A stretch of DNA of 64,000 nucleotides. It comes from Candidatus Latescibacterota bacterium. GTDB taxonomy: Bacteria > JAAXHH01. A model generated the notes under the pieces. It did no database searches. It saw only the letters and a program-made list of their open reading frames with translations, and had not been told where the DNA came from. Positions 10,714 through 36,804 of this stretch are shown one piece after another. A program made the position numbers and the translations under genes. The stretch lies in NCBI GenBank assembly GCA_022821085.1, contig JAJEEG010000006.1:268405-332404 (forward strand), in the 5' to 3' direction. Each line of letters starts with the position of its first letter. The first letter of the stretch is position 1.

Positions 10714-10781
10714 CGTTACCCCCTTTGTTCATGTTCAGAACGGTTGGGAAGGATCGCCGTTGCCGCCGGCCTCCACCCCAC

Positions 10782-14715: not shown

Positions 14716-17091
14716 GTGGAAAAAAACATGACGAGTATGGAAAAACTCAGGCGGGAGAATGCCGCGTTGCGCGAGAGTATCTCCAAGCTGAACTCGGCCA
14801 GCCTGCGTATCAGCGCGAGCCTGGACCTGGAGACCGTCCTGCAGGAAGTCGTGGAAAGCGCCCGTGCACTGACCCGGGCGAGCCACGGCGTCATCGCAAC
14901 GATAGACGAGGAAGGCCGCCCCGTTGACATTCTCACTTCCGGCCTCACGGACGAAGAGCGACGGCAGATGATGGACTGGCCGGATGGTATCAAGCTCTTC
15001 GAACATTTACGCGACCTGCCGGGCGCACTGAGACTGCCGGACGTGCAGGACTACGTGCGGTCGCTGGGATTCTCCCCGGACGTACTGCCGTTCAGTACCT
15101 TCCAGTGCATGCCCATGCGCTCTGGCGCACAACACGTCGGCAGCTTTTTTCTCGCCGATAAGGAGGGTGGCGAGCACTTCACGGACGAGGACGAGGAATT
15201 CCTCGTGCTGTTCGCGTCGCAGGCGGCCACGGCGATCGTCAATGCCCGCGCGTACCGGGCGGAGCAGAGCGCGCGCGCCGACCTGGAAGCCCTGGTCGAG
15301 ACTTCACCGGTGGGCGTTGCGGTTTTTGACGCGGGGTCCGGGTGGCCGAAGTGGTTCAACCGCGAAGCGAGACGGATCGTGGAAGTCCTGATCAGCCCGG
15401 GAAGTCCGCCGGAGTCTTTGCTGGAACAGATCACATTGAAGCGCGCCGACGGACGCGAGATCGCGCTGGACCAGTTCCCGTTGTCCGAGGCGCTGATCCA
15501 CGCCGAGAACGTACGGGCCGAGGAGATCGTGCTATCGGTACCCGACGGACGTTCCGTCGAGACACTGGTAAACTGCACGCCGATCCATTCCGATGAAGGA
15601 GAGGTCCAGTCCGTCGTCGTCACGATGCAGGACCTGGCGCAGATCAAGGAACTGGACCGGTTGCGGACCGAATTCATCAGCATGGTGAGTCACGAGCTTC
15701 GGGCCCCCCTTACCTCCATCAAGGGCTCTGCGGCCACCCTGATGGAGGAATCACCGGGGCTGGATCCCGCGGAGACGCGCGAGTTCTACCGCATCATCAT
15801 GGATCAGACCGATCAAATGCGCCGGTTGATCGGCGACCTGCTGGACGCGGGCCGCATCGACACGGGCACGCTGTCGGTGACACCCGAAGCATCTGAAATC
15901 GCCGTCCTGGTCGACCAGGCGCGAAGCTCCTTTCAGAGCGGCGGCAGCAAGCACACGCTCAGGATCGATCTTCCACCGGACCTGCCGAGGGTCATGGCCG
16001 ATCGCGCGCGCATCATACAGGTATTGAACAACCTGTTCGTCAATGCCGCGCGTCACGCACCGGAGTCCTCCCCCATCCAGGTCTCCGCCATACATGATTG
16101 CCAACACGTCGAAGTCTCGGTACGCGACGAAGGCATCGGCGTGGCGCCTGAGATGTTGCCGCACCTTTTTCATAAGCACATCGGACTTGACGACCGTGCA
16201 CGCTCTTCCAATACAGCCGGCACGCGGCTGGGTCTTGCCATCTGCAAGGGGCTCGTCGAGGCCCACGGAGGGCGAATCTGGGCGGAAAGCGCGGGTATCG
16301 GCCAGGGCACGCGCATTGCCTTCACCATCCCGGTGATCCAGGAATCCGTGACCGCGGACCGCGCAACGATTCGGAGGGAAGCGCCCGGCGAAGACGAAGT
16401 GTTCGAACCCACGCGCATACTCGTGGTCGACGACGACCCAAGGATGCTGCAGTACATTCGGGACGCCCTCACCGAATCCGGTTTCGACCCGGTCGTAACC
16501 GGCGACCACGTCGAACTGTCGAGCATCATTCGGGCCGAAAAACCCCAACTGGTCCTGCTCGACCTGATATTGCCCGATACAGATGGCATAGAGTTGATGA
16601 GAAGCTTATCAGAACTATCCGATATCCCGGTCATCTTCATCTCTGCCTACGGCCGGGACGAAACCATCGCGAAGGCGCTGGAAGAGGGTGCGGACGACTA
16701 CCTGGTCAAACCCTTCTCGCCGACGGAACTCGTGGCAAGGATACGGACGTCGTTGCGCAGGCGGGCCGATCCCGAACCGTTCCTGCTGGGTGAGCTGGCG
16801 ATCAACTACGACCGTCGCCTGGTGAGCATGGGCGGCGTCCAGGTCGATCTCACCGCCAAGGAGTTCAACCTGCTTCGCGTACTCTCCCTGAACGCGGGCC
16901 GGGTGTCGACCTTCGATGCCCTGATTCGACAGGTTTGGGGTGCGCATGGCTACGCGAACCACAAGCTTGTGCGGAGTCTGATCAAAACGCTTCGGCGCAA
17001 GATTGGAGACGATGCGCGCGCGCCCGACTACATCTTCAACGTACGCGGGGTCGGGTACCGAATGGCCCGGCCCGGCGATGTCAAGGTCTGA
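14716..17091 (+). CDS. fused two-component protein: GAF/PAS sensor histidine kinase + receiver + OmpR-type winged-helix DNA-binding domain
   Basis: HisKA H-box (FISMVSHELRAPL). HATPase region. REC domain (ILVVDDDP...LLDLILPDTDG). Trans_reg_C tail (LTAKEFNLLRVL...GVGYRM). Confidence 0.85.
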   Translation: MEKNMTSMEKLRRENAALRESISKLNSASLRISASLDLETVLQEVVESARALTRASHGVIATIDEEGRPVDILTSGLTDEERRQMMDWPDGIKLFEHLRDLPGALRLPDVQDYVRSLGFSPDVLPFSTFQCMPMRSGAQHVGSFFLADKEGGEHFTDEDEEFLVLFASQAATAIVNARAYRAEQSARADLEALVETSPVGVAVFDAGSGWPKWFNREARRIVEVLISPGSPPESLLEQITLKRADGREIALDQFPLSEALIHAENVRAEEIVLSVPDGRSVETLVNCTPIHSDEGEVQSVVVTMQDLAQIKELDRLRTEFISMVSHELRAPLTSIKGSAATLMEESPGLDPAETREFYRIIMDQTDQMRRLIGDLLDAGRIDTGTLSVTPEASEIAVLVDQARSSFQSGGSKHTLRIDLPPDLPRVMADRARIIQVLNNLFVNAARHAPESSPIQVSAIHDCQHVEVSVRDEGIGVAPEMLPHLFHKHIGLDDRARSSNTAGTRLGLAICKGLVEAHGGRIWAESAGIGQGTRIAFTIPVIQESVTADRATIRREAPGEDEVFEPTRILVVDDDPRMLQYIRDALTESGFDPVVTGDHVELSSIIRAEKPQLVLLDLILPDTDGIELMRSLSELSDIPVIFISAYGRDETIAKALEEGADDYLVKPFSPTELVARIRTSLRRRADPEPFLLGELAINYDRRLVSMGGVQVDLTAKEFNLLRVLSLNAGRVSTFDALIRQVWGAHGYANHKLVRSLIKTLRRKIGDDARAPDYIFNVRGVGYRMARPGDVKV

Positions 17092-17131
17092 CACCAGACG
17101 CCGGCGAACGCTTCGTACCAGGTCGGTTTGC

Positions 17132-17521
17132 TCAGTCCTGCCTCTGCTTCAAAGCCCTGACTTCTCCTTCAACGCGGCCAAGCCTTTTGTTCAAGTCATG
17201 TATATCCGCCCTGACAACCTTGAATTCCTCCTGCATTTCGGTCCTGAGCGACTGCATTTCATCCCTGACGGCCTTGAATTCCTCCTGCATTTCAGCCCTG
17301 ACGGCCTTGAATTCCTCCTGCATTTCAGCCCTGAACGACCGCATTTCAGTCCTGAACGACCTGAATTCCTCCTGCATTTCGGTGCGCAGTTCACCGGTGG
17401 ATTGACCCATAAAGGTGATGACCGCAATGACAAGAATACCGACGGCAACCAGCACCTGGACAAATGCGATCAGTTTCTGGTACATTTCGTTCCCCGCTTT
17501 CGTTTTGCGTTCATGATTCAT
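17132..17521 (-). CDS. small N-terminal-TM protein with 11-residue repeats and C-terminal DLNKRLGRVEG motif (paralog family)
   Basis: 129 aa. TM helix (LIAFVQVLVAVGILVIAVITF). Repeats of the form EMQEEFKAVRA encoded by 33-bp DNA tandem repeats. Confidence 0.65.
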   Translation of the reverse strand: MNHERKTKAGNEMYQKLIAFVQVLVAVGILVIAVITFMGQSTGELRTEMQEEFRSFRTEMRSFRAEMQEEFKAVRAEMQEEFKAVRDEMQSLRTEMQEEFKVVRADIHDLNKRLGRVEGEVRALKQRQD

Positions 17522-17533
17522 TTCTGTTGATCA

Positions 17534-17800
17534 ATACTATTGAAGACATTGGACCGCATCCGGCTCGCCGCACCCGGCTCGTCGCACCCCATTCGACCCT
17601 TCTAAATTGTAACTGTCGGAGCCCATTCTGAAATCCTCGGACTTTTTTGTGTTTTGTTAAGGTTCCGCCAGTTAAGGTTCCGCCAGTTGAAGTTCCGCCC
17701 GGATAAGGCACACAGCAGCCTCTTTCTGCTCGATGGCCTCACCAATTGGGAATTGCCTTATACGCCTCATCCTGTGGTAATTGGCTAATGGCATTGTAAC
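17534..17800. repeat. ~270-bp conserved element, copy A (upstream of minus-strand gene 17132..17521); contains a 15-bp x3 tandem repeat
   Basis: About 80% identity to 19960-20225 (aagacattggac..catccggctcg..gtaactgtcggag..ctgaaatcct.ggacttttttt...gccttatacgc..catcctgtg). Tandem units agttaaggttccgcc at ~17655-17700. Confidence 0.7.
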
Positions 17801-18180
17801 GTCGTTTTGTGATGGGAGAACGCTGACAAGCCCTACGCTAACAGACGCGTCGCGGTCCAGCGCGTCGCGACTCAGCGCTGCGCTGCGAGTCAGTTTAAAA
17901 ACCCTCACTCCCGTCCTTTTGCGTCAACGGCTTGACTGCCCCCTCCACGCGTCCGAGCCTTATTCTCGAACTTTTCACGAAAACACGACAGTCCCCCTTG
18001 CCTTATACCATTACTTATCAGATATTTCACAATACCTCATGACGGAGTAACCACCTCTACGGAAGTTTCTTTCGGTAAAGTAGGAAGCACTTTTACAGCC
18101 AACGGCTTTCCCATCCATATAAAAATCGTCAAATGGGCGTGTAGTATAACCCCAGTGTTTTTCCATCCGAAAGGATTGCC

Positions 18181-19419
18181 ATGACACGCTTGCGTCTCAG
18201 ACTCGTGTGCATTGCGTTACTGCCGGTATCCCTGTTCGTGCTTTCCACCTGCGGCAAGGATAGTTCCACCGCCCCAGGCGCTCCAACACCCCCTGCCCCG
18301 GTACCCGCCAGCATCGAAATCACCCCGGCGTCCGCTACGTTGAACGCCATAGATCAAACCGTTGAGTTGGCTCCAGTAGTACTTGACGAGAATGGTGCTG
18401 AGATCGCCGATGCTTCGGTTACGTGGACGAGTGGCGCCGTGGACGTTGCGACGGTTTCCGATCAAGGCCTGGTCACGGCGGTCAACAACGGGTCCGCGGT
18501 GATCACGGCACAGTCGGACAGTCTTTCGGCATCGGCGAGTATCACCGTCTCGCAGGTGCCGGTCCGTATCGTAATCGAGTTCCCGACCACGGAATCGGGC
18601 CAGGTCATACTGACGGACATGGGCGAGTTAAAACTGGTAGCCACGGTACAGGATAGAAACGGACATCCGGTGGCCGGAGCGGAAGTGACATGGTCGAGCA
18701 GCGATGAATCCGTAGCGACCGTCAACGATCAAGGAGTGGTAAACGAGGTCTCGAGCGGGTTTACTCAGATCACAGCCCGATCGGGAGACCTGTCAGACTC
18801 GATTAATTATGGTGTCTCGTTAAGTGTTGCACTGGGCAGGTTGTATATGGCGACAAATGGTCCGGATTGGACACAAAACACGAACTGGTTGACTGATAAA
18901 CCGTTGGAAGAATGGCACGGTATTACGGTCGGCTTGTTTGGACAGCCTACGATACTGAACCTGAACAACAACAACCTGGGTGGCTCGATTCCGACGGATG
19001 CGGGACAATTGTATTCTCTTGGAGAACTGAATCTGGGATCCAATCGGATTTCGGGCGAGATTCCCGCAACGATAGGAAAGCTGGAATTTCTCGGCAAACT
19101 GAACCTGAGCGACAACCAGTTGTCAGGAGAAATACCCGCCGAGTTGGGACGACTTAAAGAACTGGAGGTTCTGGCACTCGACAGGAACGAGTTGACCGGT
19201 GAGCTTCCGGCCGAACTGGGTAACCTTGCCAACCTCCGGGAATTACACCTGCAGGAAAATGAATCATTGAACGGACCTCTGCCTGATTCGTTTACGAATC
19301 TCGAGCTTCAAACCCTGGACCTGGATGGAACAGCGCTTTGCGTGCCGGCCAACTCGGAGTTCCAGGCCTGGATCGAAGGGATTGATAACGTAACCGCCGC
19401 CACGTGCCCTGATCCGTAG
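18181..19419 (+). CDS. Big_2 + LRR surface lipoprotein (paralog family)
   Basis: Lipobox LSTCGKDS. Two Big_2 domains. LRRs with the conserved C-cap GTALCVP...FQAWI...C. Confidence 0.8.
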   Translation: MTRLRLRLVCIALLPVSLFVLSTCGKDSSTAPGAPTPPAPVPASIEITPASATLNAIDQTVELAPVVLDENGAEIADASVTWTSGAVDVATVSDQGLVTAVNNGSAVITAQSDSLSASASITVSQVPVRIVIEFPTTESGQVILTDMGELKLVATVQDRNGHPVAGAEVTWSSSDESVATVNDQGVVNEVSSGFTQITARSGDLSDSINYGVSLSVALGRLYMATNGPDWTQNTNWLTDKPLEEWHGITVGLFGQPTILNLNNNNLGGSIPTDAGQLYSLGELNLGSNRISGEIPATIGKLEFLGKLNLSDNQLSGEIPAELGRLKELEVLALDRNELTGELPAELGNLANLRELHLQENESLNGPLPDSFTNLELQTLDLDGTALCVPANSEFQAWIEGIDNVTAATCPDP

Positions 19420-25943: not shown

Positions 25944-27398
25944 ATGCATTACTTCATAGTAGTACTGATTGCGTTCGCTCTCAGTATGTATGGATGCGAA
26001 GGTAAGACGGGTCCGGCGGGTCCGACCGGTGCCGCAGGCGCCGCAGGTCCGGCAGGTCCGGCTGGCCCGCAGGGTTCGACTGGTCCGGCAGGTCCGGCAG
26101 GTCCGGCAGGCCCCCAGGGTCCGGCTGGTGCTGATGGTGCCGATGGTGCCGCAGGTCCGGCAGGTCCGGCAGGTCCGGCAGGTCCGGCAGGTCCGGCAGG
26201 TCCGCAAGGTGAGAAGGGCGACACCGGCGAGCAGGGTCCGGCGGGTGCAGGCGCCGATCCGGGTGCTATCCAGGACATCGTTGATGGCGTCATCGGAACT
26301 GGTGTCCTGGCGGACATTCACCACATCCTGCTGTTGAAGGATGGTGAAACAGATCCTAAAAAAGGTATGGCGATAGATGTTGCAGGCGTGGCAGTTGGCG
26401 CCGAGATCGCCAGCGTGAACGTTGGCGTACTTGTAGGGGCATCCACATCTTATGTGGCCAAGGTTGCGACCGTCAGTGGACAGCCGATTCCCGCTACGCT
26501 TACCTGGACATCCGACGACGAGGAAGTAGCCTCGGTGGATGACGGTACGATTACAGGTAATAGAAGGGGATCAGCGACGGTAACCATGGCCGTAGATGGT
26601 CGTGGCATTGAAGTTGATTTCAAGGTAACCGTCCACGACGTTGTCAAGGGTATCATCGCTATTGCTGCCAGTGATACCAGGCTTGCAGTGGGTGATGAGG
26701 TTACAGTTAACGCTACTGCCTATGATGCCGCACAGACCGATGCTGCGGGCGCCGAAGGTAACGAGGTTCCCAATATAACCTTTACCTGGATGAGCTCCAA
26801 CGAAGCCGTGGCAACCGTGGATGAAGATGGCGTGGTGACTGCCAAGGGCGCCGGAAGTGCTGATATTACGGCCCACGTAGGCGACGTTAAGAGTAACAAG
26901 GTCGGAGTCACTGTATTCGACGTTCTGACTGTCGAACGCAGGATACGTGTAACCAACCTTCCCATCTCAGGGACGTATATCGCTGTCGGAGATACGCTTA
27001 TTTCTGACAGCAGCGTAGTTGCAGATGGATCTGAATCTGGTAGCGTCGGCGCTATCAATGTGGTTGTCGAGCAGTTCGATCCGACTTCTGGTGCAAGTGG
27101 AGCTTGGGCAGCTGTTACTGGCACTGATACTATGGTGAAGTACACAAGTCTGGATACAGACGTGATTACTTTTGCCGAAACCACCTCCAATACTGATGCC
27201 ACTCCCTATATGGGTACGGCTAGTATTGCTACCGATGGCAGCGGTAACGCCAATATGCCTGCGTTTACACACGATAATAGCGCAAACGGTAAGGTGGCAG
27301 GTCGAGGCACTGCCAGAATTGAGATTTCCACCCAATATGCTGATTCGCGCTATATTGAGATCATAGTATCAATTCCCTCTACCCACAAGGCCCCCTAA
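25944..27398 (+). CDS. lipoprotein with collagen-like stalk followed by Big_2 Ig-like domains
   Basis: Lipobox YGCEG followed immediately by about 95 residues of G-X-Y repeats ([10 protein letters not shown]...), then Big_2-type domains. Contains a perfect 9-bp tandem repeat. Confidence 0.8.
26151..26204. repeat. perfect 9-bp tandem repeat (gcaggtccg x6) encoding (AGP)n inside the collagen-like gene
   Basis: Six identical head-to-tail units, with three more related units at 26086-26112. Confidence 0.9.
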
Positions 27399-27518
27399 CC
27401 ACAGGATGAGTGGCTATACATTGATGAAGAAAGGTTATTGCCACTCAACAGGTCTTGGAGGGTAGCAGAGCAGAAACGCACGACAAATACAGAATACACA
27501 GTTGAACCGTGTATCTTC

Positions 27519-27580
27519 CCGTCCGTCCTTAGTAGGAGCTTTAGCGACCGAACAGGGCGGACGGTTTTTTTTGTGTTTTT
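27519..27580 (+). terminator. probable rho-independent terminator after the collagen-Big_2 gene
   Basis: ccgtccg...cggacgg stem followed by ttttttttgtgttttt. Confidence 0.45.
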
Positions 27581-27787
27581 CCGCCAGATCCCTCCCTCTT
27601 GACTAAGCCCCTCATGAAAGTTACTTTCTGCGTCGCGGCGTTTCATGGTTCCGGTTGCGTTATGCCGACGTGCCGACATACCCGGTAGACCGGGAATCCT
27701 TGCGCCGTGGTTTGGTATTGCATTGAATGCACCGTTTTGTGGAACGAATTTCATAGCCGATAGCGGCAACATCCGGAGGTCTCCATC

Positions 27788-28711
27788 GTGCTACGCCACC
27801 TCGCCAGGCTGTTACTCTTTCTTGTATTTCTAGGCTGTGAGGGACCGACGGGTCCGGAGGGTCCGGCCGGACCGGCGGGGCAGGCCGGCGCCGCCGGTCC
27901 GCAGGGTATCCAGGGTCCGGCGGGACCGCAGGGCGAACCCGGGGAGACGCTGGACTGGTCGGACGTAATCGAGACCGAGAATCTGGGGGACGCGGTCTAC
28001 GCGATCGGGGTGCAGATCCAGGGGAAGAACTACGTGCTGGGTTCGGGTTTCGTCGCACACTTCACAAATGCCGTCTGGACCAATGCCCGCGTCGTTCAGG
28101 CCGTCCTCATTTCGACCACGTTTATCGACCACCTCAACCCGCGGGCCTTTGCCGTCAAGTCGGGCACGGAGATTGGCGGCGCCGACACGTACTGGCTGGA
28201 GAACTACTGGGTTCATCCCGACTACGACGGCACAGCCGGCTCGCCCGACGCGGCCCTGCTCATCATCGACGCGAACCTGACGGACCTGCCGTTCTTCCTG
28301 CCCAGGGACCAGGCCCAGGGCCTGCGCGCGGGACAGCCCATCGGTACGATCGGGTTTCCGGAGGAAGAAACGGGCGAGTCCGTCACGGTCCCCATCGCCA
28401 CGTTCAATGGCGGCACGATCGGCGCGCTGAGGCCCTTCGAAGACGCGGTCCCCACGCCGGCGAACAGCCGGATCATCCAGCATGACCTGGACAATTCCGG
28501 CCGAACGAGCGGCAGTCTCATTTTTGATCACTCGGGATACATCGTCGGGATGAATTTCGCCGGGATCTTCCGGGTCGCCTACGACGCCCGGACCGGGGAG
28601 CCCACGCGCGTTCCGTCGGGAAACCCCGGCCTCGCCGTCCGCGTGGACGAGCTCTGGCGCCTCTACGACCTGGCAAGGGGGAGTGGGCGCCAGGTCGTGC
28701 TACTTCCCTAG
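27788..28711 (+). CDS. lipoprotein with collagen-like stalk and trypsin-like (S1/Trypsin_2) domain, possibly non-canonical
   Basis: Lipobox LGCEG followed by about 35 residues of G-X-Y repeats. Then GSGFV...TNARVV (Arg where the catalytic His is expected), DAALLIID (Asp box) and GRTSGSLIF (Ser box). Confidence 0.65.
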   Translation: MLRHLARLLLFLVFLGCEGPTGPEGPAGPAGQAGAAGPQGIQGPAGPQGEPGETLDWSDVIETENLGDAVYAIGVQIQGKNYVLGSGFVAHFTNAVWTNARVVQAVLISTTFIDHLNPRAFAVKSGTEIGGADTYWLENYWVHPDYDGTAGSPDAALLIIDANLTDLPFFLPRDQAQGLRAGQPIGTIGFPEEETGESVTVPIATFNGGTIGALRPFEDAVPTPANSRIIQHDLDNSGRTSGSLIFDHSGYIVGMNFAGIFRVAYDARTGEPTRVPSGNPGLAVRVDELWRLYDLARGSGRQVVLLP

Positions 28712-29069
28712 CAGGACTTTCCGCACCTAGCCTTCAGATCCTACCCAGCCTTCAAACCCTTCCCGGATAGATGGAACGGCGAGGCGGAACTTTCGTAACA
28801 CAGGATTCCGGCCTGATCGCTAACGATCCGGAAGCGCTGGCGGTATGTGTTTGTGCCTTCCTCCCCTCCCATGCTCAAATAACCACATTTTAACCCCATA
28901 ACATCACGCTTAAATTATATGTCAAGGTATTGAAACAGATGATACCTGGCTATGGGTGATTTTATGTTGTAAATCCAAATATGATGCATACTTTGATCAT
29001 TCCACTTTGCAGAATGTTAGTCGAAAACTCGAATGTAATGCCGACCACACCGGTCCCGGGGAACGTCCT

Positions 29070-30968
29070 ATGAATATCCGTCCTTTGAAGCGTCTGTACA
29101 TAACGACCTTCTCAAGTTTCAGTACTGTATTTTTGATCACGGCCTGTCTGGTCCTGGTCACCTGCGGCAAGGACAGCACGACGAAGCCTGCGGCGCCTGA
29201 ACCGCCTCCGCCCGCAACACCCGCGCCGCCGCCCCCGGCGCCCGTACCTACCCGGATTACGATCACCCCTTCGTCCGTTTCGCTCAACTCCGTTGGCCAG
29301 ACCATGCCCTTGACGGCCAAGGTCTTCGATCAGAACAACGCGGTGCTCGGCAGTGCAACAGTTTCGTGGTCCAGCAGCGACGAGGGCGTGGCGACGGTCG
29401 GCAGCCGGGGGTTGGTCACCGCCGTCTCGAACGGTACGGCGACCATCACGGCGAGTTCAGGCATCGCTTCTGCGACCGCGGCCGTCACGGTGATGCAGTC
29501 CGCAAGCCGCATCGTCCTTGAGTCGTCCTCGGCAACGCTTGTGTCCCTCGGGGAAACCGTGCAACTCACCGCCACTGTGCAGGATGCGAACGGTCAAGCA
29601 GTAGACGGCGCGGCTGTAACCTGGTCGAGCAGCGACGAGGGCGTGGCGACAGTCGGCGCCCAGGGCTTGGTCACGGCAGTCTCGAACGGCAGCGCCACGA
29701 TCACGGCCAGATCGGGCAGCGTTTCTGCGACCGCGGCCGTCACGGTCATGCAAACCGCCCACGGAATCGTCCTTGAACCGCAGATGGCGACGCTCACCAG
29801 GGCCGGCGAGACCGTGCAGCTGGCCGCGGCCGTACTGGACCTGAACGAACAGCCCGTGGACGGCGCCACCGTCTCATGGGCCAGTAGCGACCCGGGCGTC
29901 GCGGCGGTCGACGATGATGGACTGGTGACGGCGGTTGCGAACGGCAGCGCCGGGATCACCGCGTCTTACGGCGACATATCCGCCACGGCCCGGATCGAAG
30001 TGGAGATCGCCGACCCGGGCGATAGAGACGCGTTGATTGCGCTGTATGTCGCCCTTGACGGACCGAACTGGACGTATAATACCAACTGGCTGTCCGACCT
30101 GCCTCTGGGTGAGTGGTATGGCGTGGGCACCGACGACACTGGAAGAGTCACCTGGCTGAGTCTCGCCTTCAACGAACTCAGCGGCGCCATTCCTTCGGAA
30201 CTGGGCAATCTGGCCAAACTGGAGGAACTCAATCTTAGCCAGAATCGGTTGTCGTGCGTGATTCCACCTGAATTGGGGAACCTGACCAACCTGTACGGGC
30301 TCTACCTTTACTCCATTCCGATCTTGCCGGCGGTCTTTCCGCCGGAGTGGGATCCTGTCCCCGACCCGGCTTGCCGCATCCCTGCCGAGTTGGGGAACCT
30401 GACCAACCTGGAGGAACTGAGGCTTGGCCTCAGAACGCTGTCTGGCCGCATTCCTGCCGAGTTGGGGAACCTGACCAACCTGCAGGTACTGGATCTCCGC
30501 TTCAACGCATTGTCCGGCGGCGTGCCGCCGGAACTGGGGAAGCTGCCCAACCTGTATTCGTTGAATCTCGGTTTCAACGCGTTATCTGGCAGCATCCCTG
30601 CCGAGTTGGGGAATCTGGCCAATCTGATGGAACTGAACCTGACCCTCAACGCGTTGTCGGGCAGCATCCCGCCTGAGTTGGGCAACCTGGCCGGCCTGGA
30701 AGTGCTGGAACTTGGCTTAAATGCGTTGTCCGGCAGTGTCCCGCCTGAGTTGGGAAACCTCTCCGAACTCACATATCTTTCTTTGGTTTACAATGAGGAC
30801 CTGTCGGGTCCGCTGCCCGCCACGTTCACCAACCTCAACTACCTGGAGGGGTTGGATCTGTCTTATACCGGCTTGTGCGTGCCGCCGGAACCTGCGTTCC
30901 GGGCGTGGCTGGAGCGGTTTCAGGCTGCCGATCAAGTGGTGTACTGCGGAGGGATGCAGGGCGGTTAA
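29070..30968 (+). CDS. Big_2 + LRR surface lipoprotein (paralog family)
   Basis: Start placed at the ATG (29070) that gives the signal peptide/lipobox LVTCGKDS. Pro-rich linker. Four Big_2 domains (VPTRITI...). About 9 LRRs. C-cap GLCVPPEPAFRAWLERF...C. Confidence 0.75.
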   Translation: MNIRPLKRLYITTFSSFSTVFLITACLVLVTCGKDSTTKPAAPEPPPPATPAPPPPAPVPTRITITPSSVSLNSVGQTMPLTAKVFDQNNAVLGSATVSWSSSDEGVATVGSRGLVTAVSNGTATITASSGIASATAAVTVMQSASRIVLESSSATLVSLGETVQLTATVQDANGQAVDGAAVTWSSSDEGVATVGAQGLVTAVSNGSATITARSGSVSATAAVTVMQTAHGIVLEPQMATLTRAGETVQLAAAVLDLNEQPVDGATVSWASSDPGVAAVDDDGLVTAVANGSAGITASYGDISATARIEVEIADPGDRDALIALYVALDGPNWTYNTNWLSDLPLGEWYGVGTDDTGRVTWLSLAFNELSGAIPSELGNLAKLEELNLSQNRLSCVIPPELGNLTNLYGLYLYSIPILPAVFPPEWDPVPDPACRIPAELGNLTNLEELRLGLRTLSGRIPAELGNLTNLQVLDLRFNALSGGVPPELGKLPNLYSLNLGFNALSGSIPAELGNLANLMELNLTLNALSGSIPPELGNLAGLEVLELGLNALSGSVPPELGNLSELTYLSLVYNEDLSGPLPATFTNLNYLEGLDLSYTGLCVPPEPAFRAWLERFQAADQVVYCGGMQGG

Positions 30969-31062
30969 TGATTCAACACGTTCGTGCTGAATCGCAATCG
31001 AGTGTCCGTTGCCTCGCGTTATCGTCACTTCGCCGACCATTCTGTACAGCCCGGACTGACGC
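30965..31062 (-). pseudogene. frameshifted remnant duplicating the 3' end of gene 32156..32896
   Basis: About 100 bp at ~85% identity to 32156-32253 (gattcaacacgttcg[t/a]gctgaa[t/c]cgca...ccattctgtacag). It encodes SGLYRMVGEVTI in one frame and LRFSTNVLNH-stop in the adjacent frame. Confidence 0.5.
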
Positions 31063-31395
31063 CCCCGCGTCGGCCTGATCGGCAGGATGAGCTTATGAGG
31101 CGGCAGTTTCATACGCAGTTGAACAGCATCTGCGGAACCGGATCAGGCAACAACGCATGAAACAATGGCCGGGTAATCGGTTGTGTGGGTAAGTCTGTGG
31201 ATAACACTCAGTTCTGTCGCCTGCCCCTGCACGTTTACTGTGTGAATTGAACGCCCCGTGATGCTAAAATCCCGGGGCCTTCTCGTCTTTTGGATGGATG
31301 GGCAGCACAGGATTCGGTAACGACTCGACTGCTTTGATGATTTCGAACTGGTGCACTGCCCGAAAACCAAGTTTAATTTACGAAATATGGAAGAT

Positions 31396-31424
31396 TTGAT
31401 TAGGAAAAACAAATTGTATATACT
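31396..31424 (+). promoter_or_regulatory. sigma70-like promoter candidate (TTGATT-17 bp-TATACT) upstream of the MarR gene
   Basis: Hexamers with 17-bp spacing in an AT-rich intergenic region, about 215 nt upstream of the 31641 start. Confidence 0.3.
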
Positions 31425-31640
31425 ATTTTAAGTATGAGTCAGTTTTCAGGGCTTTCCTATGTCCTCTGAAGCTTAGCAGAATCCGTTTCCATGATCAGGG
31501 AAGATCGAATCGAAGCTCCGATGACCTTGTGTTACTGAATAAGACCGGATACGCGCTCATTCTCATCGTAAGTAGTAGGGTACTATGGCATCCGGCCGAA
31601 CTGCAAGGCGGGGGATCGTAACCAGGGAAAGGTAAAACCG

Positions 31641-32084
31641 ATGAGCAACGACCACAGGGAGGAACTGTGCGACCGGTTGGTAGCCGCGACAGCCGGTCTG
31701 TATCGTCTCGTATATCTGGGCCTTCGGAATGACCGAAGAGATATGCGGGAGACAGAGATGGTTAACCAGTATAAAACCCTGATATTGTTGGCCGACCACG
31801 GACCTGCGAGCGTGAGCCGGATTGCCGATATCAACGAATGCAATGATAGTTCCATAAACAAAGTTCTGGATAGGCTCGAACAAAAAAACATGATCGAGAA
31901 GGAGAGATCTTCGCATGACCGCAGACAAGTCATCTGTGAACTGGCTCCCGAGGGACGGAAGGTGGTGGAGAGGATCGATCATGTCGTCAGGTATCTTGTT
32001 CTGCCGACCACCGAGACCTGGAGCCTGGAGCAACTCGAAGCTTTCGTAGAATCGTTGGAGTCTATGCATCCCGGCCGAGCGTAG
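31641..32084 (+). CDS. MarR family transcriptional regulator
   Basis: 147 aa. Winged-helix region (LADHGPASVSRIADI...VLDRLEQKNMIEKERSSHDRRQVICELAPEG). SD gggaaagg upstream. Confidence 0.8.
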   Translation: MSNDHREELCDRLVAATAGLYRLVYLGLRNDRRDMRETEMVNQYKTLILLADHGPASVSRIADINECNDSSINKVLDRLEQKNMIEKERSSHDRRQVICELAPEGRKVVERIDHVVRYLVLPTTETWSLEQLEAFVESLESMHPGRA

Positions 32085-32155
32085 GCCGCGTCCTGGTCAC
32101 CGAACGAATCACGAGGAAGGTAAACCATGTGTATTCATCGGGAAACCGAACGTCC

Positions 32156-32896
32156 TCAGTGATTCAACACGTTCGAGCTGAACCGCAGTTCCGTAAGTCC
32201 ATCCCGGCCTATCGTAACATCGCCTACCATTCTGTACAGTCCGGACTCGACCGGTGTGTATACGCACAGCTTGTTCTCGCCACGCACCGTGCCGGGTAGG
32301 GTCGTCCAGCCGAATTCATCCTGCCGCTGCCATCTCGAATGGTGAAACCGGTAGCTTGCCGCTTCGTATCCCGTCCCGTACACGGTTTGCGGATCGACGT
32401 CGATGCAGGAGCCGGCCCCCTGCGCGGACAACTCGAAGAACTCCACACGGCCCGCACTGACTACCAGCCTCTGCAATGGATTATAACTTTCGTCGTCGGG
32501 ATGCGCCGGCGCGTTCACCGTTACGGAGATGGTGATCGTCGCGCTGTTCCCGCCTGGGTCCGTCGCCCTGATGGAAACCGTGGCGGTTCCCTCGGCCAAC
32601 GGGTCGATCGTCAGCACCGGACCGGACATAGTGGCCATTACGACCGACGCGTCGCTCGATTCCGCCGAGTAGGTCAGGGGCCGCTCCTCGGGGTCCTTGA
32701 AGGCCGTCGCGAAACTGATCGTAAGGCGCTCCCGCTCCGCGGTCAGCGTCTGCGCTTCGAAGGTCTCGACCACCGTGGGCGCGAAATCATCCGGCGTTCT
32801 CGGCTGGACACTGCTGTCGCCCCCGCATCCCATAGCCAGGGAAACCAGCAGGACAGGTATCATTATTGTTCTCATGGCTTTCTCGCTCCTTGCCAA
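32156..32896 (-). CDS. lipoprotein with Ig-like (Big/cadherin-like) domain
   Basis: Lipobox LAMGCGGD. Beta-sandwich-like segment (TATVSIRATDPGGNSATITISVTV). Its 3' end is duplicated as a remnant at 30965-31062. Confidence 0.6.
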   Translation of the reverse strand: MARSEKAMRTIMIPVLLVSLAMGCGGDSSVQPRTPDDFAPTVVETFEAQTLTAERERLTISFATAFKDPEERPLTYSAESSDASVVMATMSGPVLTIDPLAEGTATVSIRATDPGGNSATITISVTVNAPAHPDDESYNPLQRLVVSAGRVEFFELSAQGAGSCIDVDPQTVYGTGYEAASYRFHHSRWQRQDEFGWTTLPGTVRGENKLCVYTPVESGLYRMVGDVTIGRDGLTELRFSSNVLNH

Positions 32897-33138
32897 CCTG
32901 CTAAGGTAGAATCTTAAGCGGCGACGAACAGTGTATGGCTAATCCCTACTGTTGAGTATTTCTCTGATGACCTGTATAATGATAGATATCTCGTCGGTAG
33001 CAATGCTGGATTTCCGAATGTAATCGTCCGGGGTCATGGGAACAAGTTGGAACCGCCAACCGTCTTGGAAGGTGATCCTCGACCGTCCCGCTTGAATCAG
33101 TCGTAAGGCAGATAACCTTTCTCGCATCGAGGTGTAGC

Positions 33139-33672
33139 ATGACAGAAAAACACCATACGGTCTATTCGCTGCTATCGATCCCCTTCGTGCCACTGCTTGC
33201 GGCTTTGTCGCTGGCAGTGGCGGGTTGTACGGAATCAGCGCAGGACGCACCGACGGCAGACGCTACACCCCCTGCCGCGCCTTCGCACGAGCCGGTCTAT
33301 CTCGTCTCGGAAACCACGGCGAGCATGAACCTGCCCTTCTCCGACGCCGTGCGCGTGGGGCACCTGCTGTTCCTCTCCGGCCAGATCGGAAACATCCCCG
33401 GTACGACGGACCTGGCGCCGGGCGGCATCCAGGGCGAGGCCCGCCAGACCATGGAGAACATCAAGGCGGTCCTGGAAGCCAACGGATCCACCATGGACCG
33501 GGTGTTCAAGGCCACGGTCATGCTGGCGGACATCGCCGAATGGCCCGCCTTCAACGAGGTGTACGTCACGTACTTCCCCGGCGACAAGCCGGCCCGCAGC
33601 GCCTTCGCCGGCAGCGGCCTGGCATTCGGCGCGCGGTGCGAGGTCGAGGTGATCGCCACGGTGGGCGAGTAG
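33139..33672 (+). CDS. RidA/YjgF/TdcF family protein with lipoprotein signal peptide
   Basis: Lipobox LAVAGCTE and a Pro/Ala linker, then the RidA fold signature (...GQIGNIPGT...ARSAFAG...). Confidence 0.75.
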   Translation: MTEKHHTVYSLLSIPFVPLLAALSLAVAGCTESAQDAPTADATPPAAPSHEPVYLVSETTASMNLPFSDAVRVGHLLFLSGQIGNIPGTTDLAPGGIQGEARQTMENIKAVLEANGSTMDRVFKATVMLADIAEWPAFNEVYVTYFPGDKPARSAFAGSGLAFGARCEVEVIATVGE

Positions 33673-33687
33673 GAAAGATCAATAGCC

Positions 33688-34135: not shown

Positions 34136-35572
34136 ATGGATGAGGATATTCGGGAAGACGAGCGTGTTGATGGGCCGGGGTCGGCAGAGGCGGAAAGCGG
34201 ACCGGGCCGGCTGGACCGGCCGGACCGGCTGAATCGGCTGGACCGCCTGGACCGACGCACGTTCATCAGGGTGAGCGCCCTGGCCGGCATGGCCGGCGCG
34301 GCGGGCGTCGCCGCGTCCGGTTGCACTGGTGCGGGCGAGCAGGATGGATCATCGGAAGGTGGTGGCACGGGCGGTACGAGCGGTGCCGTTGGTACCGGCG
34401 GTTTGGGCGGTGACCCGGAGGCCCTGGCGGCCGACCTGAGGGACAACGTCTACACCCGGCTGCTGGGCGTACGGCCCCATGTCGGTGCCCACGAGCACCT
34501 CTCGAGCATGGGGGGCTCGCGCATGCCGGTCGAGGTAATGGAGGCCATGGCCGAGGCCAACCGCTATTTCGTGGACATGGCGGAACTGCACGACGCGGCG
34601 GGACGGCGCATCGCCGAGATCATGGGGGCGGAGGCCGCCCTGGTCTCGTCTGGCGCCTTCGCGTCGATGCTGGTGGGCGCGGCGGGCGTTTTGACCGGGT
34701 CCGACCAGGAACGGATGCGGCTCCTGCCCAATCCGACCTGGCCGAAGGTGGAGTGCCTGTTCCAGACCGCCCATCGCTTCTTCTACGACAACGTGTTCGG
34801 ATTCGCCGGCATGAAGCTGGTGGAGGTCGGCACCCGCGCGGAATACGAGGCGGCCATCACGGACCGGACGGCGCTGCTCGTGGGCCTGGCCTATATCGAG
34901 CACCAGACGCGGGGCGTCCCGCCCTTCCCCGTGCGCCACCGGCAGGAACACGATCCCGAGACGCTCATGCCCCTGGAGATCATCGAGATCGGCAAGCGCA
35001 GGGGGGTGCCGGTGATGATCGACCTGGCGTCCAACCTGCCGCCGAAGGAGAACCTGACGAAGTACCTGGAAGCCGGCGCCGACCTGGTCGTGGTCAGCGG
35101 CGGCAAGGGGATCCGCGGCCCGAACTCGACGGGGATCCTCGCGGGCCGCGCCGACCTGATCCACGCCGCCCGGATGCAGAACGCGCCGGTGAACGGCATC
35201 GGACGGGGACTGAAGGTCGGCAAGGAGGAGATCGTCGGCCTGGTCGCCGCGCTGGAGCGGTATGTAGCCCTCGACGAAGAAGAGGAGATCGCGGCCTGGA
35301 ACGAGAAGGCCCGCTGGCTGGCGGACCAGTTGCAGGGCATCGACGGCCTGGAAGCCCGCTACGAGCTCAACACCCACGGGTACTGCGACGTGGAACTGCT
35401 CTGGGACGAGGCGGTGATTCCCCTGTCCCGGGAAGACGTGGGCCGGCTGCTGCGCGCGGGCGATCCGAAGATTATCTATGACGGACCGGGTCCGCGAACG
35501 CTGCAGCTCGAGGAAGGCGAAGTCGAACTCGTGGCCCGCAGGCTGCGGGAACTGTTCACCACGGGAAGCTGA
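34136..35572 (+). CDS. SelA-like (fold type I) PLP-dependent enzyme with twin-arginine signal
   Basis: DRRTFIRVSALAGMAGAAGVAASGC is a Tat motif plus possible lipobox. VSGGKGIRGPNSTGILAG resembles the SelA PLP-lysine motif FSGDKLLGGPQAG. Confidence 0.6.
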   Translation: MDEDIREDERVDGPGSAEAESGPGRLDRPDRLNRLDRLDRRTFIRVSALAGMAGAAGVAASGCTGAGEQDGSSEGGGTGGTSGAVGTGGLGGDPEALAADLRDNVYTRLLGVRPHVGAHEHLSSMGGSRMPVEVMEAMAEANRYFVDMAELHDAAGRRIAEIMGAEAALVSSGAFASMLVGAAGVLTGSDQERMRLLPNPTWPKVECLFQTAHRFFYDNVFGFAGMKLVEVGTRAEYEAAITDRTALLVGLAYIEHQTRGVPPFPVRHRQEHDPETLMPLEIIEIGKRRGVPVMIDLASNLPPKENLTKYLEAGADLVVVSGGKGIRGPNSTGILAGRADLIHAARMQNAPVNGIGRGLKVGKEEIVGLVAALERYVALDEEEEIAAWNEKARWLADQLQGIDGLEARYELNTHGYCDVELLWDEAVIPLSREDVGRLLRAGDPKIIYDGPGPRTLQLEEGEVELVARRLRELFTTGS

Positions 35573-35592
35573 AGGATTCCGAAAGGACGGGC

Positions 35593-36804
35593 ATGGCCGA
35601 GGAAAACCCGAACGGACGCGGCACGCCTGGCGGTCCGCCGGCCGGTGACCGGTTGACCTACGAGGATTCCGGCGTGGATTACGACCGGATCGATCCCCTG
35701 AAGGTCCTCGCCCAGCAGGCGGCGCGGGCCACGGGGGCCAACCTCGAGCGCGCGGGTACGGGTGCCCGCGAGGTGGCGGCCAGCCGCGGCGAGTCGGCGT
35801 ACGTGTTGGACATCGGCGACGCGTACCTCGCCTCCATCACCGAATGCCTGGGCACCAAGGCCCTGGTGGCCGACGCGATGCGGAAGGGGCCGGCGGTATC
35901 GGGGGTGTCGGGGCCGCCCGAGGCGTCGGGACGGGAAGCGTCGGGACGGACCTGGTACGACCACATCGCGCAGGACACCATCGCCACGGCCGTCAACGAC
36001 CTCGTCACCGTAGGCGCCAAACCCCTGAGCATCCACGCCTACTGGGCCGCCGGTTCGTCGGACTGGTTCGACGACACCGAACGCATGAACGACCTGGTCG
36101 AGGGTTGGAGGGCGGCCTGCGACGTCCTGGGCGTGGCCTGGGGCGGCGGCGAGACGCCCTGCCTGACCGGCGTGGTGGAGGAAGGCGCCATCGACCTGGC
36201 CGCCTCCTGCGTGGGCATCATCCGGCCGAAGTCGCGCCTCACCCTGGGCGAGGACCTGGCCGCCGGCGACGCGATCGTCCTACTGGAAAGCAGCGGCATC
36301 CACGCCAACGGCCTCACCCTCGCCCGCAAGCTCGCCGAACGGTTGCCGGAGGGGTACGCCACGGTCATGCCCGGCGGCCGGACCTACGGTGAGGCCTTGC
36401 TCGACCCCACCGTGCTCTATCCGCCCGTCACCGAGGCGGCATTCGAGGCCGGCATCGGCCTGCGCTACGTCGCCAACATCACCGGCCACGGCTGGCGAAA
36501 GATCATGCGCCACCCCGGCCGGCTCACCTACCGCATTACCGAACTGCCCCCCGTTCCCGAGGTCCTGCGGTTCATGGTGGATGAGACCCGCCAGACCGCG
36601 GAAGAGGCCTACGGCAGCCTGAACATGGGCGCCGGCTTTGCCCTCTTCGTCCGCCCGGAGGATGGGGACGCGGCCGTGGCCTGCGCCGAGGCGCAAGGCA
36701 TCCGCGCCTGGGTTGCCGGCGTAGTGGAAGATGGCCCCCGCCAGGTGGTCATCGAGCCGCTGGGCGTGACGCTCAGTGGGGAAAGCCTGGCGCTGCGGGA
36801 CTGA
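35593..36804 (+). CDS. AIR-synthase-related (PurM-like) protein
   Basis: YEDSGVDYDRID N-terminal motif and overall PurM-like N-/C-domain layout (403 aa). Confidence 0.7.
   Translation: MAEENPNGRGTPGGPPAGDRLTYEDSGVDYDRIDPLKVLAQQAARATGANLERAGTGAREVAASRGESAYVLDIGDAYLASITECLGTKALVADAMRKGPAVSGVSGPPEASGREASGRTWYDHIAQDTIATAVNDLVTVGAKPLSIHAYWAAGSSDWFDDTERMNDLVEGWRAACDVLGVAWGGGETPCLTGVVEEGAIDLAASCVGIIRPKSRLTLGEDLAAGDAIVLLESSGIHANGLTLARKLAERLPEGYATVMPGGRTYGEALLDPTVLYPPVTEAAFEAGIGLRYVANITGHGWRKIMRHPGRLTYRITELPPVPEVLRFMVDETRQTAEEAYGSLNMGAGFALFVRPEDGDAAVACAEAQGIRAWVAGVVEDGPRQVVIEPLGVTLSGESLALRD

What the first reader, a model, noticed from the sequence alone, without database searches (positions are those of the whole stretch)
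30965..32253. Frameshifted ~100-bp remnant of a lipoprotein gene end abutting the LRR gene stop
Minus-strand sequence 30965-31062 is about 85% identical to the 3' end of 32156..32896 (32156-32253). It encodes SGLYRMVGEVTI in one frame and LRFSTNVLNH-stop in the neighbouring frame. The intact gene has SGLYRMVGDVTI...LRFSSNVLNH-stop. The remnant's TAA overlaps the TAA of the convergent LRR gene (ttaa at 30965-30968). This is a footprint of a past duplication, deletion or recombination event, and it marks the region between the LRR gene and the MarR gene as a rearrangement site.
Basis: seen in the sequence. Interest (0 to 1): 0.5.

Follow-up and report, generated by a model that had tools for sequence, protein, structure and literature searches.

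The report
Orphaned gene tail at recombination scar
The ~95-base stretch is the frameshifted leftover tail of a surface-lipoprotein gene that a different version of the same gene, arriving with a MarR regulator gene, displaced; it is a real but ordinary scar of genome rearrangement.

Summary
Window 30965-31057 (minus strand) is the last ~31 codons of a lipoprotein gene, broken by one inserted base at 31011. Its stop codon overlaps the stop of the convergent LRR gene (TTAA, 30965-30968).

It is not a decayed copy of the neighbouring intact gene (32156-32875), to which it is only 76% identical over 98 nt. It is the tail of a different allele. In a related genome (L010), one 96%-identical alignment runs through the LRR gene and on into an intact lipoprotein gene. 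That gene ends ...SGLYRMVGEVTITRGTDTRLRFSTNVLNH*, has the same TTAA overlap, lies next to RidA, and has no MarR nearby.

A second scar sits directly beside the remnant: the last 11 codons and the downstream region of a ~1330-aa autotransporter-like gene (31062-31304, plus strand). MarR and the intact "A-type" lipoprotein allele follow, 94% identical to a third genome (L002).

Most likely the A-type allele, MarR and the autotransporter tail replaced most of the resident B-type allele. One crossover would be homologous, on the RidA side, and the other an illegitimate join at 31058-31061. A deletion within one genome is the main rival. Similar orphan tails occur in three other relatives.

This is an ordinary pseudogene scar at a rearrangement-prone locus, of low interest.

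The parts
30965..31057 (-). Orphaned 3' end (last ~31 codons plus stop) of a B-type allele of the Ig/cadherin-like surface lipoprotein gene. It has no 5' part and no start codon.
   Evidence: 93% identical to the intact L010 gene end over 98 nt. From TCCGG to the stop it differs by 2 substitutions and 1 indel. It lies inside a single 96.2% HSP, window 29124-31055 vs L010 12570-10640. It is 94% identical to the L006 allele end.
31011..31011 (.). Single inserted base (G on the plus strand, C on the minus strand) that causes the frameshift, turning ...TRG-TDTRLRF... into ...TRGNGHSIA...
   Evidence: It is the only gap in the alignments to L010 and L006. It is also present in the independent assembly L001.
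31058..31061 (.). Illegitimate junction between the lipoprotein-tail remnant and the autotransporter-tail remnant. A short microhomology (CCGGA[C]) is possible but cannot be resolved.
   Evidence: Three-way comparison of the window with L010 on one side and L009, L020, L012 and L014 on the other.
31062..31098 (+). 3' tip (PRVGLIGRMSL*) of a ~1330-aa Calx-beta/autotransporter-like outer-membrane gene. The rest of that gene is absent from the window.
   Evidence: 89-91% identical to the 3' ends of the L009 (16708..20700) and L020 genes, which end ...HRIGLIGRMSF*. L012 and L014 also match. tblastn finds no full copy in the window.
31099..31304 (+). Downstream non-coding region of that autotransporter-like gene. 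It includes a terminator-like hairpin with a T-run at about 31258-31295.
   Evidence: 31148-31283 is 74-75% identical to L009 16561-16691 and L020 16295-16425, colinear with the tip. 31184-31304 is 78% identical to L019 8758-8881. A terminator-like site is reported at 31273-31285.
31332..31640 (+). MarR upstream region, AT-rich, with divergent promoter-like hexamers. This is where the A-type haplotype shared with L002/L003 begins.
   Evidence: 94% identity to L002 starts exactly at 31332. Promoter-like sites lie at 31396-31424 (+) and 31442-31413 (-).
31641..32084 (+). MarR-family transcription regulator gene (147 aa). It sits between the intact lipoprotein gene and the remnant.
   Evidence: Pfam MarR, E = 1.8e-13. 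The protein is 92.5% identical to that of L002/L003, 85% to L019 and 60% to L015. It is absent at this position in L010, L006 and L005.
32156..32875 (-). Intact A-type lipoprotein gene (239 aa, lipobox LAMGC, two beta-sandwich domains). Its last 98 nt (32156-32253) are the counterpart of the remnant.
   Evidence: Pfam Big_9. 73 homologues, those that carry a source name mostly labelled Gemmatimonadota MAGs. AF2 model pLDDT 80, with cadherin/S-layer-like fold matches. The gene is mosaic: 32400-32580 is no closer to L002 (67-87%) than to L006 (79-90%).
29070..30968 (+). Convergent Big_2 + LRR lipoprotein gene whose stop overlaps the remnant's stop. It is the orthologue of the L010 gene that converges on the intact B-type lipoprotein gene.
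   Evidence: Pfam Big_2 and LRR. The protein is 91% identical to L010 12678..10729. DNA identity is 96% and continues into the remnant.

Best explanation
The stretch is a dead gene tail. It holds the last ~31 codons of the version ("B-type", as in genomes L010 and L006) of a surface lipoprotein gene that once sat here. That gene converged on the LRR gene with overlapping stop codons, and RidA lay on its 5' side.

Most of the B-type gene was then replaced by a block of DNA from a diverged relative. The block carried three things:
- another version of the same gene ("A-type", as in L002);
- the MarR gene that accompanies the A-type allele;
- the last 37 bases and downstream region of an autotransporter-like gene.

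One end of the exchange was ordinary homologous recombination, in or beyond the conserved RidA side. The other end was an illegitimate join at 31058-31061, 93 nt before the resident gene's stop. This is the pattern called homology-facilitated illegitimate recombination. The orphaned tail, no longer translated, has since picked up a one-base insertion and two substitutions.

Shown: the identity and origin of the remnant, the second remnant, the haplotype mosaic, and the breakpoints.
Inferred: the direction and mechanism of the exchange.

My confidence that this is the tail of a B-type allele is about 0.95. My confidence in one-sided homologous replacement is about 0.55-0.6.
For: 1; one HSP at 96.2% with one gap joins window 29124-31055 to L010 12570-10640. 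It covers the LRR gene plus the remnant. In L010 the lipoprotein gene is intact (10001-10729), ends EVTITRGTDTRLRFSTNVLNH*, has the same TTAA stop overlap, is adjacent to RidA, and has no MarR.
2; the remnant is 93% identical to the L010 end but 76% to the adjacent intact end.
3; window 31332-33200 (MarR plus lipoprotein gene plus 5' intergenic) is 92-100% identical to L002 but 74-92% to L010 and L006. Window 27400-31055 resembles L010 (88-98%, apart from 83-84% over 28800-29200). In L002 only the trypsin-gene part (27757-28680) aligns (78-88%), and the LRR gene and remnant are absent.
4; window 32160-33673 aligns with L010 10725-9203 (83%). The A and B genes therefore share a homologous 5' flank up to RidA, which makes them alleles of one locus rather than paralogues at two loci.
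5; an autotransporter tail and its downstream region abut the remnant, so the junction joins two unrelated gene ends.
6; there is mosaicism within the lipoprotein gene and along the whole region, so recombination among these lineages is frequent.
7; independent orphan tails of the same gene family occur in L019, L004 and L015.
8. PMC3240628 and PMC5361080 describe the mechanism (a homologous anchor at one end, an illegitimate join at the other) and its typical product, a displaced 3' end.
Against: - No fetched genome shows the proposed donor arrangement (autotransporter -> MarR -> <-lipoprotein). L002 has MarR but a different 360 nt upstream of it. L014 has the autotransporter but a histidine kinase in place of MarR.
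- The right-hand crossover cannot be placed. Between 33270 and 34000 all haplotypes are at least 94% alike.
- The L010-like stretch at 34400-35500 is also shared with L005 and L006. L002 may therefore simply be the outlier there.
- Nothing is known about competence or any other DNA-uptake route in this uncultured lineage.
- Microhomology at the junction is ambiguous.
Confidence: 0.58

Rival explanations
1. Deletion within one genome. An ancestor carried two copies of the lipoprotein gene in one region: a B-type copy convergent with the LRR gene, and an A-type copy next to RidA. Other genes lay between them, including the autotransporter-like gene and MarR. A single deletion, running from inside the B-type copy to 37 nt before the autotransporter stop, then left two facing gene tails.
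For: One deletion explains both remnants and their orientation. A related 3.26-Mb genome does carry two copies ~17 kb apart, one next to RidA (P0028, L005) and one convergent with an LRR gene (P0020, L004). Old orphan tails elsewhere (L004, L015) show that redundant copies erode in this family.
Against: In L010 and L006 the B-type gene sits directly next to RidA, with a 5' flank homologous to that of the window's A-type gene. A and B therefore behave as alleles of one locus. In the two-copy genome both copies end in the A-type form (DVTIG...LRFSSNVLNH). The large genes that lie between them are on the opposite strand from the window's autotransporter-tail remnant, and the autotransporter query found no match in that genome. 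This model needs extra events to explain L010, L006 and L002.
Confidence: 0.27
2. Local tandem duplication of the 3' end of the adjacent intact gene. One version is a target-site-like duplication made when a MarR cassette inserted. The other is integration of an element that carries its own replacement gene end. Either would be followed by decay of the downstream copy.
For: Direct repeats of ~95 nt flank a 1.1-kb segment that contains one gene. L019 shows a similar layout, with a small gene between an intact end and a 57-codon orphan of the same allele type.
Against: The two repeats are of different allele types. The remnant is 93-97% identical to L010 and L006 but 76% to its neighbour, and the middle is unalignable. 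The segment between the repeats begins with a fragment of an unrelated gene. No integrase or transposase is among the genes identified between 25.9 and 36.8 kb. In L002 MarR is present without any remnant.
Confidence: 0.07
3. The conserved tail is kept because it works as a non-coding element. It might be a hairpin terminator for the convergent LRR gene, or a recombination site. On this view it is not a neutral scar.
For: The last 25 nt can form a 10-bp hairpin (-13.7 kcal/mol) directly after the LRR stop. Tips of this gene family persist as orphans in several genomes.
Against: No U-run follows the hairpin on either strand. The hairpin is weak or absent in other alleles and orphans (-4 to -6 kcal/mol). 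Third-codon-position conservation at the 3' end (0.73-0.75) is no higher than in the rest of the gene (0.58-0.88). There is no Rfam match.
Confidence: 0.05

Closest known systems
Gene remnants (partial pseudogenes) at indel or recombination breakpoints in bacterial genomes
   Same: It is a truncated, frameshifted fragment. It is colinear with an intact orthologue in a relative, lacks a start codon, and lies at a synteny breakpoint.
   Different: Nothing essential differs. The particular points are that the neighbouring intact gene is a different allele of the same locus, and that a second gene tail abuts the first.
Homology-facilitated illegitimate recombination (a homologous anchor at one end and an illegitimate join at the other; described for Acinetobacter, Streptococcus and Pseudomonas, and in E. 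coli conjugation, PMC3240628)
   Same: A foreign segment (MarR plus the autotransporter tail) was added next to a homologous tract. Resident DNA was replaced. One junction has no homology, or at most a few bases of it.
   Different: This is inferred from comparative sequence only. The donor haplotype was not found, the homologous crossover could not be placed, and the uptake route is unknown.
Displacement of 3' ends in Rhs, CDI and T6SS effector loci (orphan C-terminal modules; PMC5361080)
   Same: The layout is 'intact gene, then newly arrived gene, then displaced 3' fragment of the older version'. It recurs in several relatives (window, L019).
   Different: The lipoprotein has a two-domain Ig/cadherin-like fold and no toxin domain. 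The variable part is only a 7-15-residue turn. The gene that arrived is a MarR regulator on the opposite strand, not an immunity gene.
attL/attR repeats of integrative elements that restore the 3' end of their target gene
   Same: Direct repeats of a gene's 3' end flank inserted DNA, and the gene stays intact.
   Different: There is no integrase. The repeats are 76% identical and of different allele types. The insert is 1.1 kb and starts with an unrelated gene fragment.

Membership tests
Gene remnant (partial pseudogene) of the Ig-like lipoprotein family | Nucleotide colinearity with an intact orthologue, continuing into the conserved neighbouring gene | tested here: met
   A single 96.2% HSP joins window 29124-31055 to L010 12570-10640. 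The TTAA stop overlap is the same.
Gene remnant (partial pseudogene) of the Ig-like lipoprotein family | Coding capacity destroyed (truncation and/or frameshift) | tested here: met
   Only the last ~31 of ~242 codons remain. A one-base insertion at 31011 shifts the frame.
Gene remnant (partial pseudogene) of the Ig-like lipoprotein family | Not an assembly artefact | tested here: met
   An independent Logan contig (L001) is 100% identical over 10.6 kb, including the junction.
Product of homology-facilitated illegitimate recombination | Illegitimate junction with no homology or only microhomology | tested here: met
   The tail of the lipoprotein gene is fused to the tail of an unrelated autotransporter-like gene at 31058-31061. 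At most a CCGGA(C) is shared.
Product of homology-facilitated illegitimate recombination | Homologous crossover at the other end, seen as a switch of closest relative | tested here: inconclusive
   The L002-like tract ends somewhere between 33200 and 34000, where all haplotypes are at least 94% alike. The later L010-like stretch is shared by most relatives.
Product of homology-facilitated illegitimate recombination | An identifiable donor haplotype carrying the added DNA in the same order | tested here: not met
   MarR plus the A-type gene was found in L002 and L003. The autotransporter tail was found in L009, L020, L012 and L014. The two were never found together. The metagenome scan with MarR returned nothing.
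Integrative element with att duplication of a gene's 3' end | Site-specific recombinase gene in or next to the insert | tested here: not met
   The genes identified between 25.9 and 36.8 kb encode collagen/Big_2, trypsin-like, LRR, MarR, lipoprotein, RidA, CxxCxxCC, SelA-like and AIR-synthase-like proteins.
Integrative element with att duplication of a gene's 3' end | Near-identical core in both repeats | tested here: not met
   The repeats are 76% identical overall and of different allele types.
Polymorphic-toxin C-terminal displacement (Rhs, CDI, T6SS orphans) | Variable C-terminal toxin domain with a cognate immunity gene immediately downstream on the same strand | tested here: not met
   The C-terminal domain is a conserved beta-sandwich and only a short turn varies. 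The downstream gene is MarR on the opposite strand.
Intrinsic terminator or structured RNA element | Conserved stem-loop (with a U-run for a terminator) or a match to a curated RNA family | tested here: not met
   There is no Rfam hit and no terminator call at the remnant. The hairpin is not conserved across alleles.

The most novel reading that the evidence does not exclude
Orphan 3' tails of this lipoprotein family were found in the window and in 3 of the 20 other fetched loci (L019, L004, L015; the last two probably share one old event). This might reflect a regular displacement process, in which incoming alleles arrive with an accessory gene and push the resident 3' end downstream. That would resemble Rhs, CDI and T6SS effector loci, but would involve a non-toxin Ig/cadherin-like surface protein. 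The organisms appear to be sponge-associated Gemmatimonadota-type bacteria. That description is my inference from record and sample names and from the LRR and collagen-like gene content.
Probability: 0.12. Interest if true: 0.45.

Novelty: new member of a known kind. Interest (0 to 1): 0.15.

Why it matters
On its own it matters little. It is a neutral scar with no predicted function.

Its value is as a marker. It fixes, to within a few bases, a junction where two co-circulating haplotypes of a surface-protein locus were joined. One haplotype has the LRR gene converging on the lipoprotein gene. The other has MarR next to the lipoprotein gene.

It also shows that this cluster of LRR, collagen-like, Big_2 and lipoprotein genes is reshuffled often in these uncultured bacteria. 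For annotation, the 131-codon ORF at 30717..31112 should not be called a gene, and 30965-31057 and 31062-31098 should be marked as pseudogene fragments.

Tried and rejected
1. **Recent duplication of the adjacent gene's end.** Rejected: the remnant matches the L010/L006 allele type, not its neighbour.
2. **Functional hairpin, terminator or recombination site in the shared last 25 nt.** Rejected: no U-run, no conservation across alleles, no excess synonymous conservation, and no Rfam family.
3. **A real small gene or programmed frameshift.** The only ORF through the remnant (30717..31112, 131 aa) runs antisense through the LRR gene and has no homologue support.
4. **Assembly chimera.** Rejected by the identical independent contig L001.
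5. **Tandem paralogue in L008.** The 240-aa gene next to P0022 gave no hit with the window's lipoprotein at E <= 1e-4.
6. **Search for the donor arrangement.**
   - The look-ups of P0004 and P0009 showed further different arrangements, not the donor.
   - The metagenome scan with MarR found no relative.
   - The genome-contig scan gave 10 loci, none with autotransporter-MarR-lipoprotein in that order.
7. **Using the SelA-side identity switch to define a 'backbone'.** This is uninformative, because L002 is the outlier there rather than the window.
Full report
**1. Observation**

The minus strand of 30965-31062 reads SGLYRMVGEVTI(TRGNGHS...) in one frame and (TR)LRFSTNVLNH* in the adjacent frame. 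The end of the intact gene (32156-32253) reads SGLYRMVGDVTIGRDGLTELRFSSNVLNH*.

The repeat finder gives two direct-repeat blocks: 38 nt at 89% and 28 nt at 93%. Their spacings are 1190 and 1191, so the remnant has one extra base between the blocks. A 23-nt motif from the shared end occurs only at these two places in the 64-kb window, against 0.00 expected in shuffles. TTAA at 30965-30968 holds both stop codons.

An independent Logan contig (L001) is 100% identical over 10.6 kb, including the junction and the extra base. The structure is therefore not an assembly artefact.

**2. The genes involved**

- **Intact gene.** It probably starts at the ATG at 32875 and encodes a 239-aa lipoprotein (lipobox LAMGC) with a Big_9 Ig-like domain. 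An AlphaFold model built on 42 homologues has pLDDT 80. It shows two beta-sandwich domains whose best structural matches are cadherin EC pairs and S-layer Ig-like domains.
- **Why the similarity falls into two blocks.** The remnant corresponds to the last beta-hairpin of the model: strand 213-223, turn 224-226, then strands 227-233 and 236-238. The two similar blocks are the strands, and the unalignable middle is the variable turn.
- **Family.** It has 73 database members. The named ones are mostly labelled Gemmatimonadota MAGs, with one Zixibacteria label. One fetched genome record, L010, is labelled Latescibacterota.
- **Neighbours**: a MarR-family regulator (31641-32084, +), a Big_2 + LRR protein (29070-30968, +), a collagen-repeat/trypsin-like protein, a collagen/Big_2 protein, RidA, a CxxCxxCC protein, a SelA-like protein, and an AIR-synthase-like protein (domains).

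**3. Where the remnant comes from**

Family members fall into C-terminal types. The adjacent intact gene is "A-type" (DVTIGRDGLTELRFSSNVLNH, as in P0002 and P0004). The remnant matches a "B-type" (EVTITRGTDT[E/R]LRFSTNVLNH, as in P0007).

- In contig L006 (P0007) the remnant matches the intact gene end at 94%.
- The decisive comparison is with L010, from a genome record. One HSP at 96.2% with a single gap runs from window 29124 to 31055. It passes through the LRR gene and straight into the remnant, and corresponds to L010 12570-10640.
- In L010 the lipoprotein gene is intact (10001-10729) and ends ...SGLYRMVGEVTITRGTDTRLRFSTNVLNH*. It converges on the orthologous LRR gene (91% aa identity) with the same TTAA overlap. 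It lies directly beside RidA and has no MarR.
- From TCCGG to the stop, the remnant differs from L010 by two substitutions and one inserted base (G at 31011 on the plus strand). That base causes the frameshift.
- Homology to L010 stops at about 31055-31057.

**4. What lies between the remnant and the intact gene**

- **31062-31098 (+)** encodes PRVGLIGRMSL*. This is the tip of a ~1330-aa Calx-beta/autotransporter-like gene that ends ...HRIGLIGRMSF* in L009, L020, L012 and L014.
- **31148-31283** is 74-75% identical to the region just downstream of that gene in L009 and L020.
- The window holds no full copy of that gene. Two unrelated gene tails are therefore fused tail to tail at 31058-31061. 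A short microhomology (CCGGA[C]) is possible, but the alleles are too diverged to resolve it.
- **From 31332 to about 33250**, the MarR upstream region, MarR, the whole lipoprotein gene and its 5' intergenic region are 92-100% identical to L002 and L003. The exception is a mosaic patch at 32400-32580, where the window is no closer to L002 than to L006. In L002 neither the LRR gene nor the remnant is present; a collagen/Big_2 gene follows instead.
- MarR also sits between the lipoprotein gene and the trypsin-like gene in the more distant L015 (60% aa identity). In L019 it lies elsewhere in the locus (85% aa identity).

**5. Mechanism**

Shown: the window combines a B-type left side (LRR gene plus B-type tail) with an A-type right side (MarR plus A-type gene). 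The two are joined through a fragment of a third gene.

The A and B genes share a homologous 5' flank up to RidA: window 32160-33673 aligns with L010 10725-9203 at 83%. They therefore behave as alleles of one locus.

My preferred reading (about 0.55-0.6) is allelic replacement from a diverged relative. One crossover would be homologous on the RidA side. The other would be an illegitimate join 93 nt before the resident stop. This is the pattern of homology-facilitated illegitimate recombination (PMC3240628). The same mechanism has been proposed for displaced 3' ends at T6SS and Rhs loci (PMC5361080).

Weak points:
- The exact donor arrangement was not found.
- The homologous crossover cannot be placed, because all haplotypes are at least 94% alike between 33270 and 34000.
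- The apparent L010-like stretch at 34400-35500 is shared by most relatives, so L002 is the outlier there.

The main rival (about 0.27) is a single deletion in an ancestor that carried two copies. One related genome does have two copies ~17 kb apart, one of them convergent with an LRR gene.

Local duplication of the neighbouring gene's end, or att-type integration, is contradicted by the allele-type mismatch, by the absence of a recombinase, and by the foreign gene fragment at the junction. A functional hairpin is not supported.

**6. Context**

The locus is rearrangement-prone.

- Arrangements between the trypsin-like gene and RidA differ in nearly every relative examined.
- Sequence identity along the region is mosaic.
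- Compared with L010's three tandem LRR genes, the window's LRR gene looks like a fusion of the first and the last.
- Further orphan tails of this lipoprotein family exist. L019 has a 57-codon tail after a small inserted gene. L004 and L015 share an old ~15-28-codon tail with an in-frame stop.

**7. Verdict**

This is a newly documented example of a well-known kind of feature: a pseudogene fragment at a recombination or deletion junction. It has no predicted function. Interest is low.

Noticed in passing
window 31062-31304 (+): A second scar sits beside the first. It is the last 11 codons (PRVGLIGRMSL*) and the downstream region of a ~1330-aa Calx-beta/autotransporter-like gene. That gene is complete in L009, L020, L012 and L014 but otherwise absent from the window.
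   Followed up: yes
window 29070-30968 vs L010 10729-17346: The window has one Big_2 + LRR gene where L010 has three in tandem. Its 5' part (to ~29750) matches the L010 distal gene region (16555-18864, 86%). Its 3' part (from 29124) matches the proximal gene (10640-12570, 96%). This suggests a ~4-kb deletion or fusion between paralogues, or an expansion in L010.
   Followed up: partly
L019 3600-3779; L004 5880-5930; L015 7729-7812: Other orphan 3' tails of the same lipoprotein family. L019 has a 57-codon in-frame tail ~650 nt downstream of the intact gene, with a small secreted repeat-protein gene inserted between them. L004 and L015 share flanks around an old tail that has an in-frame stop. 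In L004 it lies just after the end of a giant CARDB-domain gene.
   Followed up: partly
window 32400-32580 (lipoprotein residues ~98-158): There is a mosaic patch inside the intact gene. Identity to L002 drops to 67-87% here, about the level seen with L006 (79-90%). The rest of the gene is 93-100% identical to L002. This suggests gene conversion between alleles.
   Followed up: partly
window 31184-31304 vs L019 8758-8881: A ~120-nt non-coding segment carries a terminator-like hairpin and a T-run. It lies upstream of MarR in the window, downstream of MarR in L019, and downstream of the autotransporter-like gene in L009 and L020. It thus has three different neighbours. It also contains a perfect DnaA-box-like TGTGGATAA near 31199. 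It has no Rfam match.
   Followed up: partly
window 31360-31470: A strongly AT-rich stretch upstream of MarR carries divergent promoter-like hexamers and the near-palindrome TTGTATATACTAT. It may be the MarR operator/promoter. It is conserved at 93-97% in L002.
   Followed up: no
window 25944-28711: Two secreted proteins have N-terminal collagen-like GPxG repeats. One is fused to Big_2 domains and the other to a trypsin-like peptidase. Together with the LRR genes, these are the 'eukaryotic-like' repeat proteins typical of host-associated bacteria. The sponge-symbiont origin is my inference from sample and record names only.
   Followed up: no
window 34200-35600 (SelA-like gene): L002 is only 66-82% identical to the window here, whereas L005, L006 and L010 are 76-98% identical (90% or more from 34400). 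On either side of this stretch L002 is mostly 85-100% identical. This looks like another recombination tract, probably in the L002 lineage.
   Followed up: no
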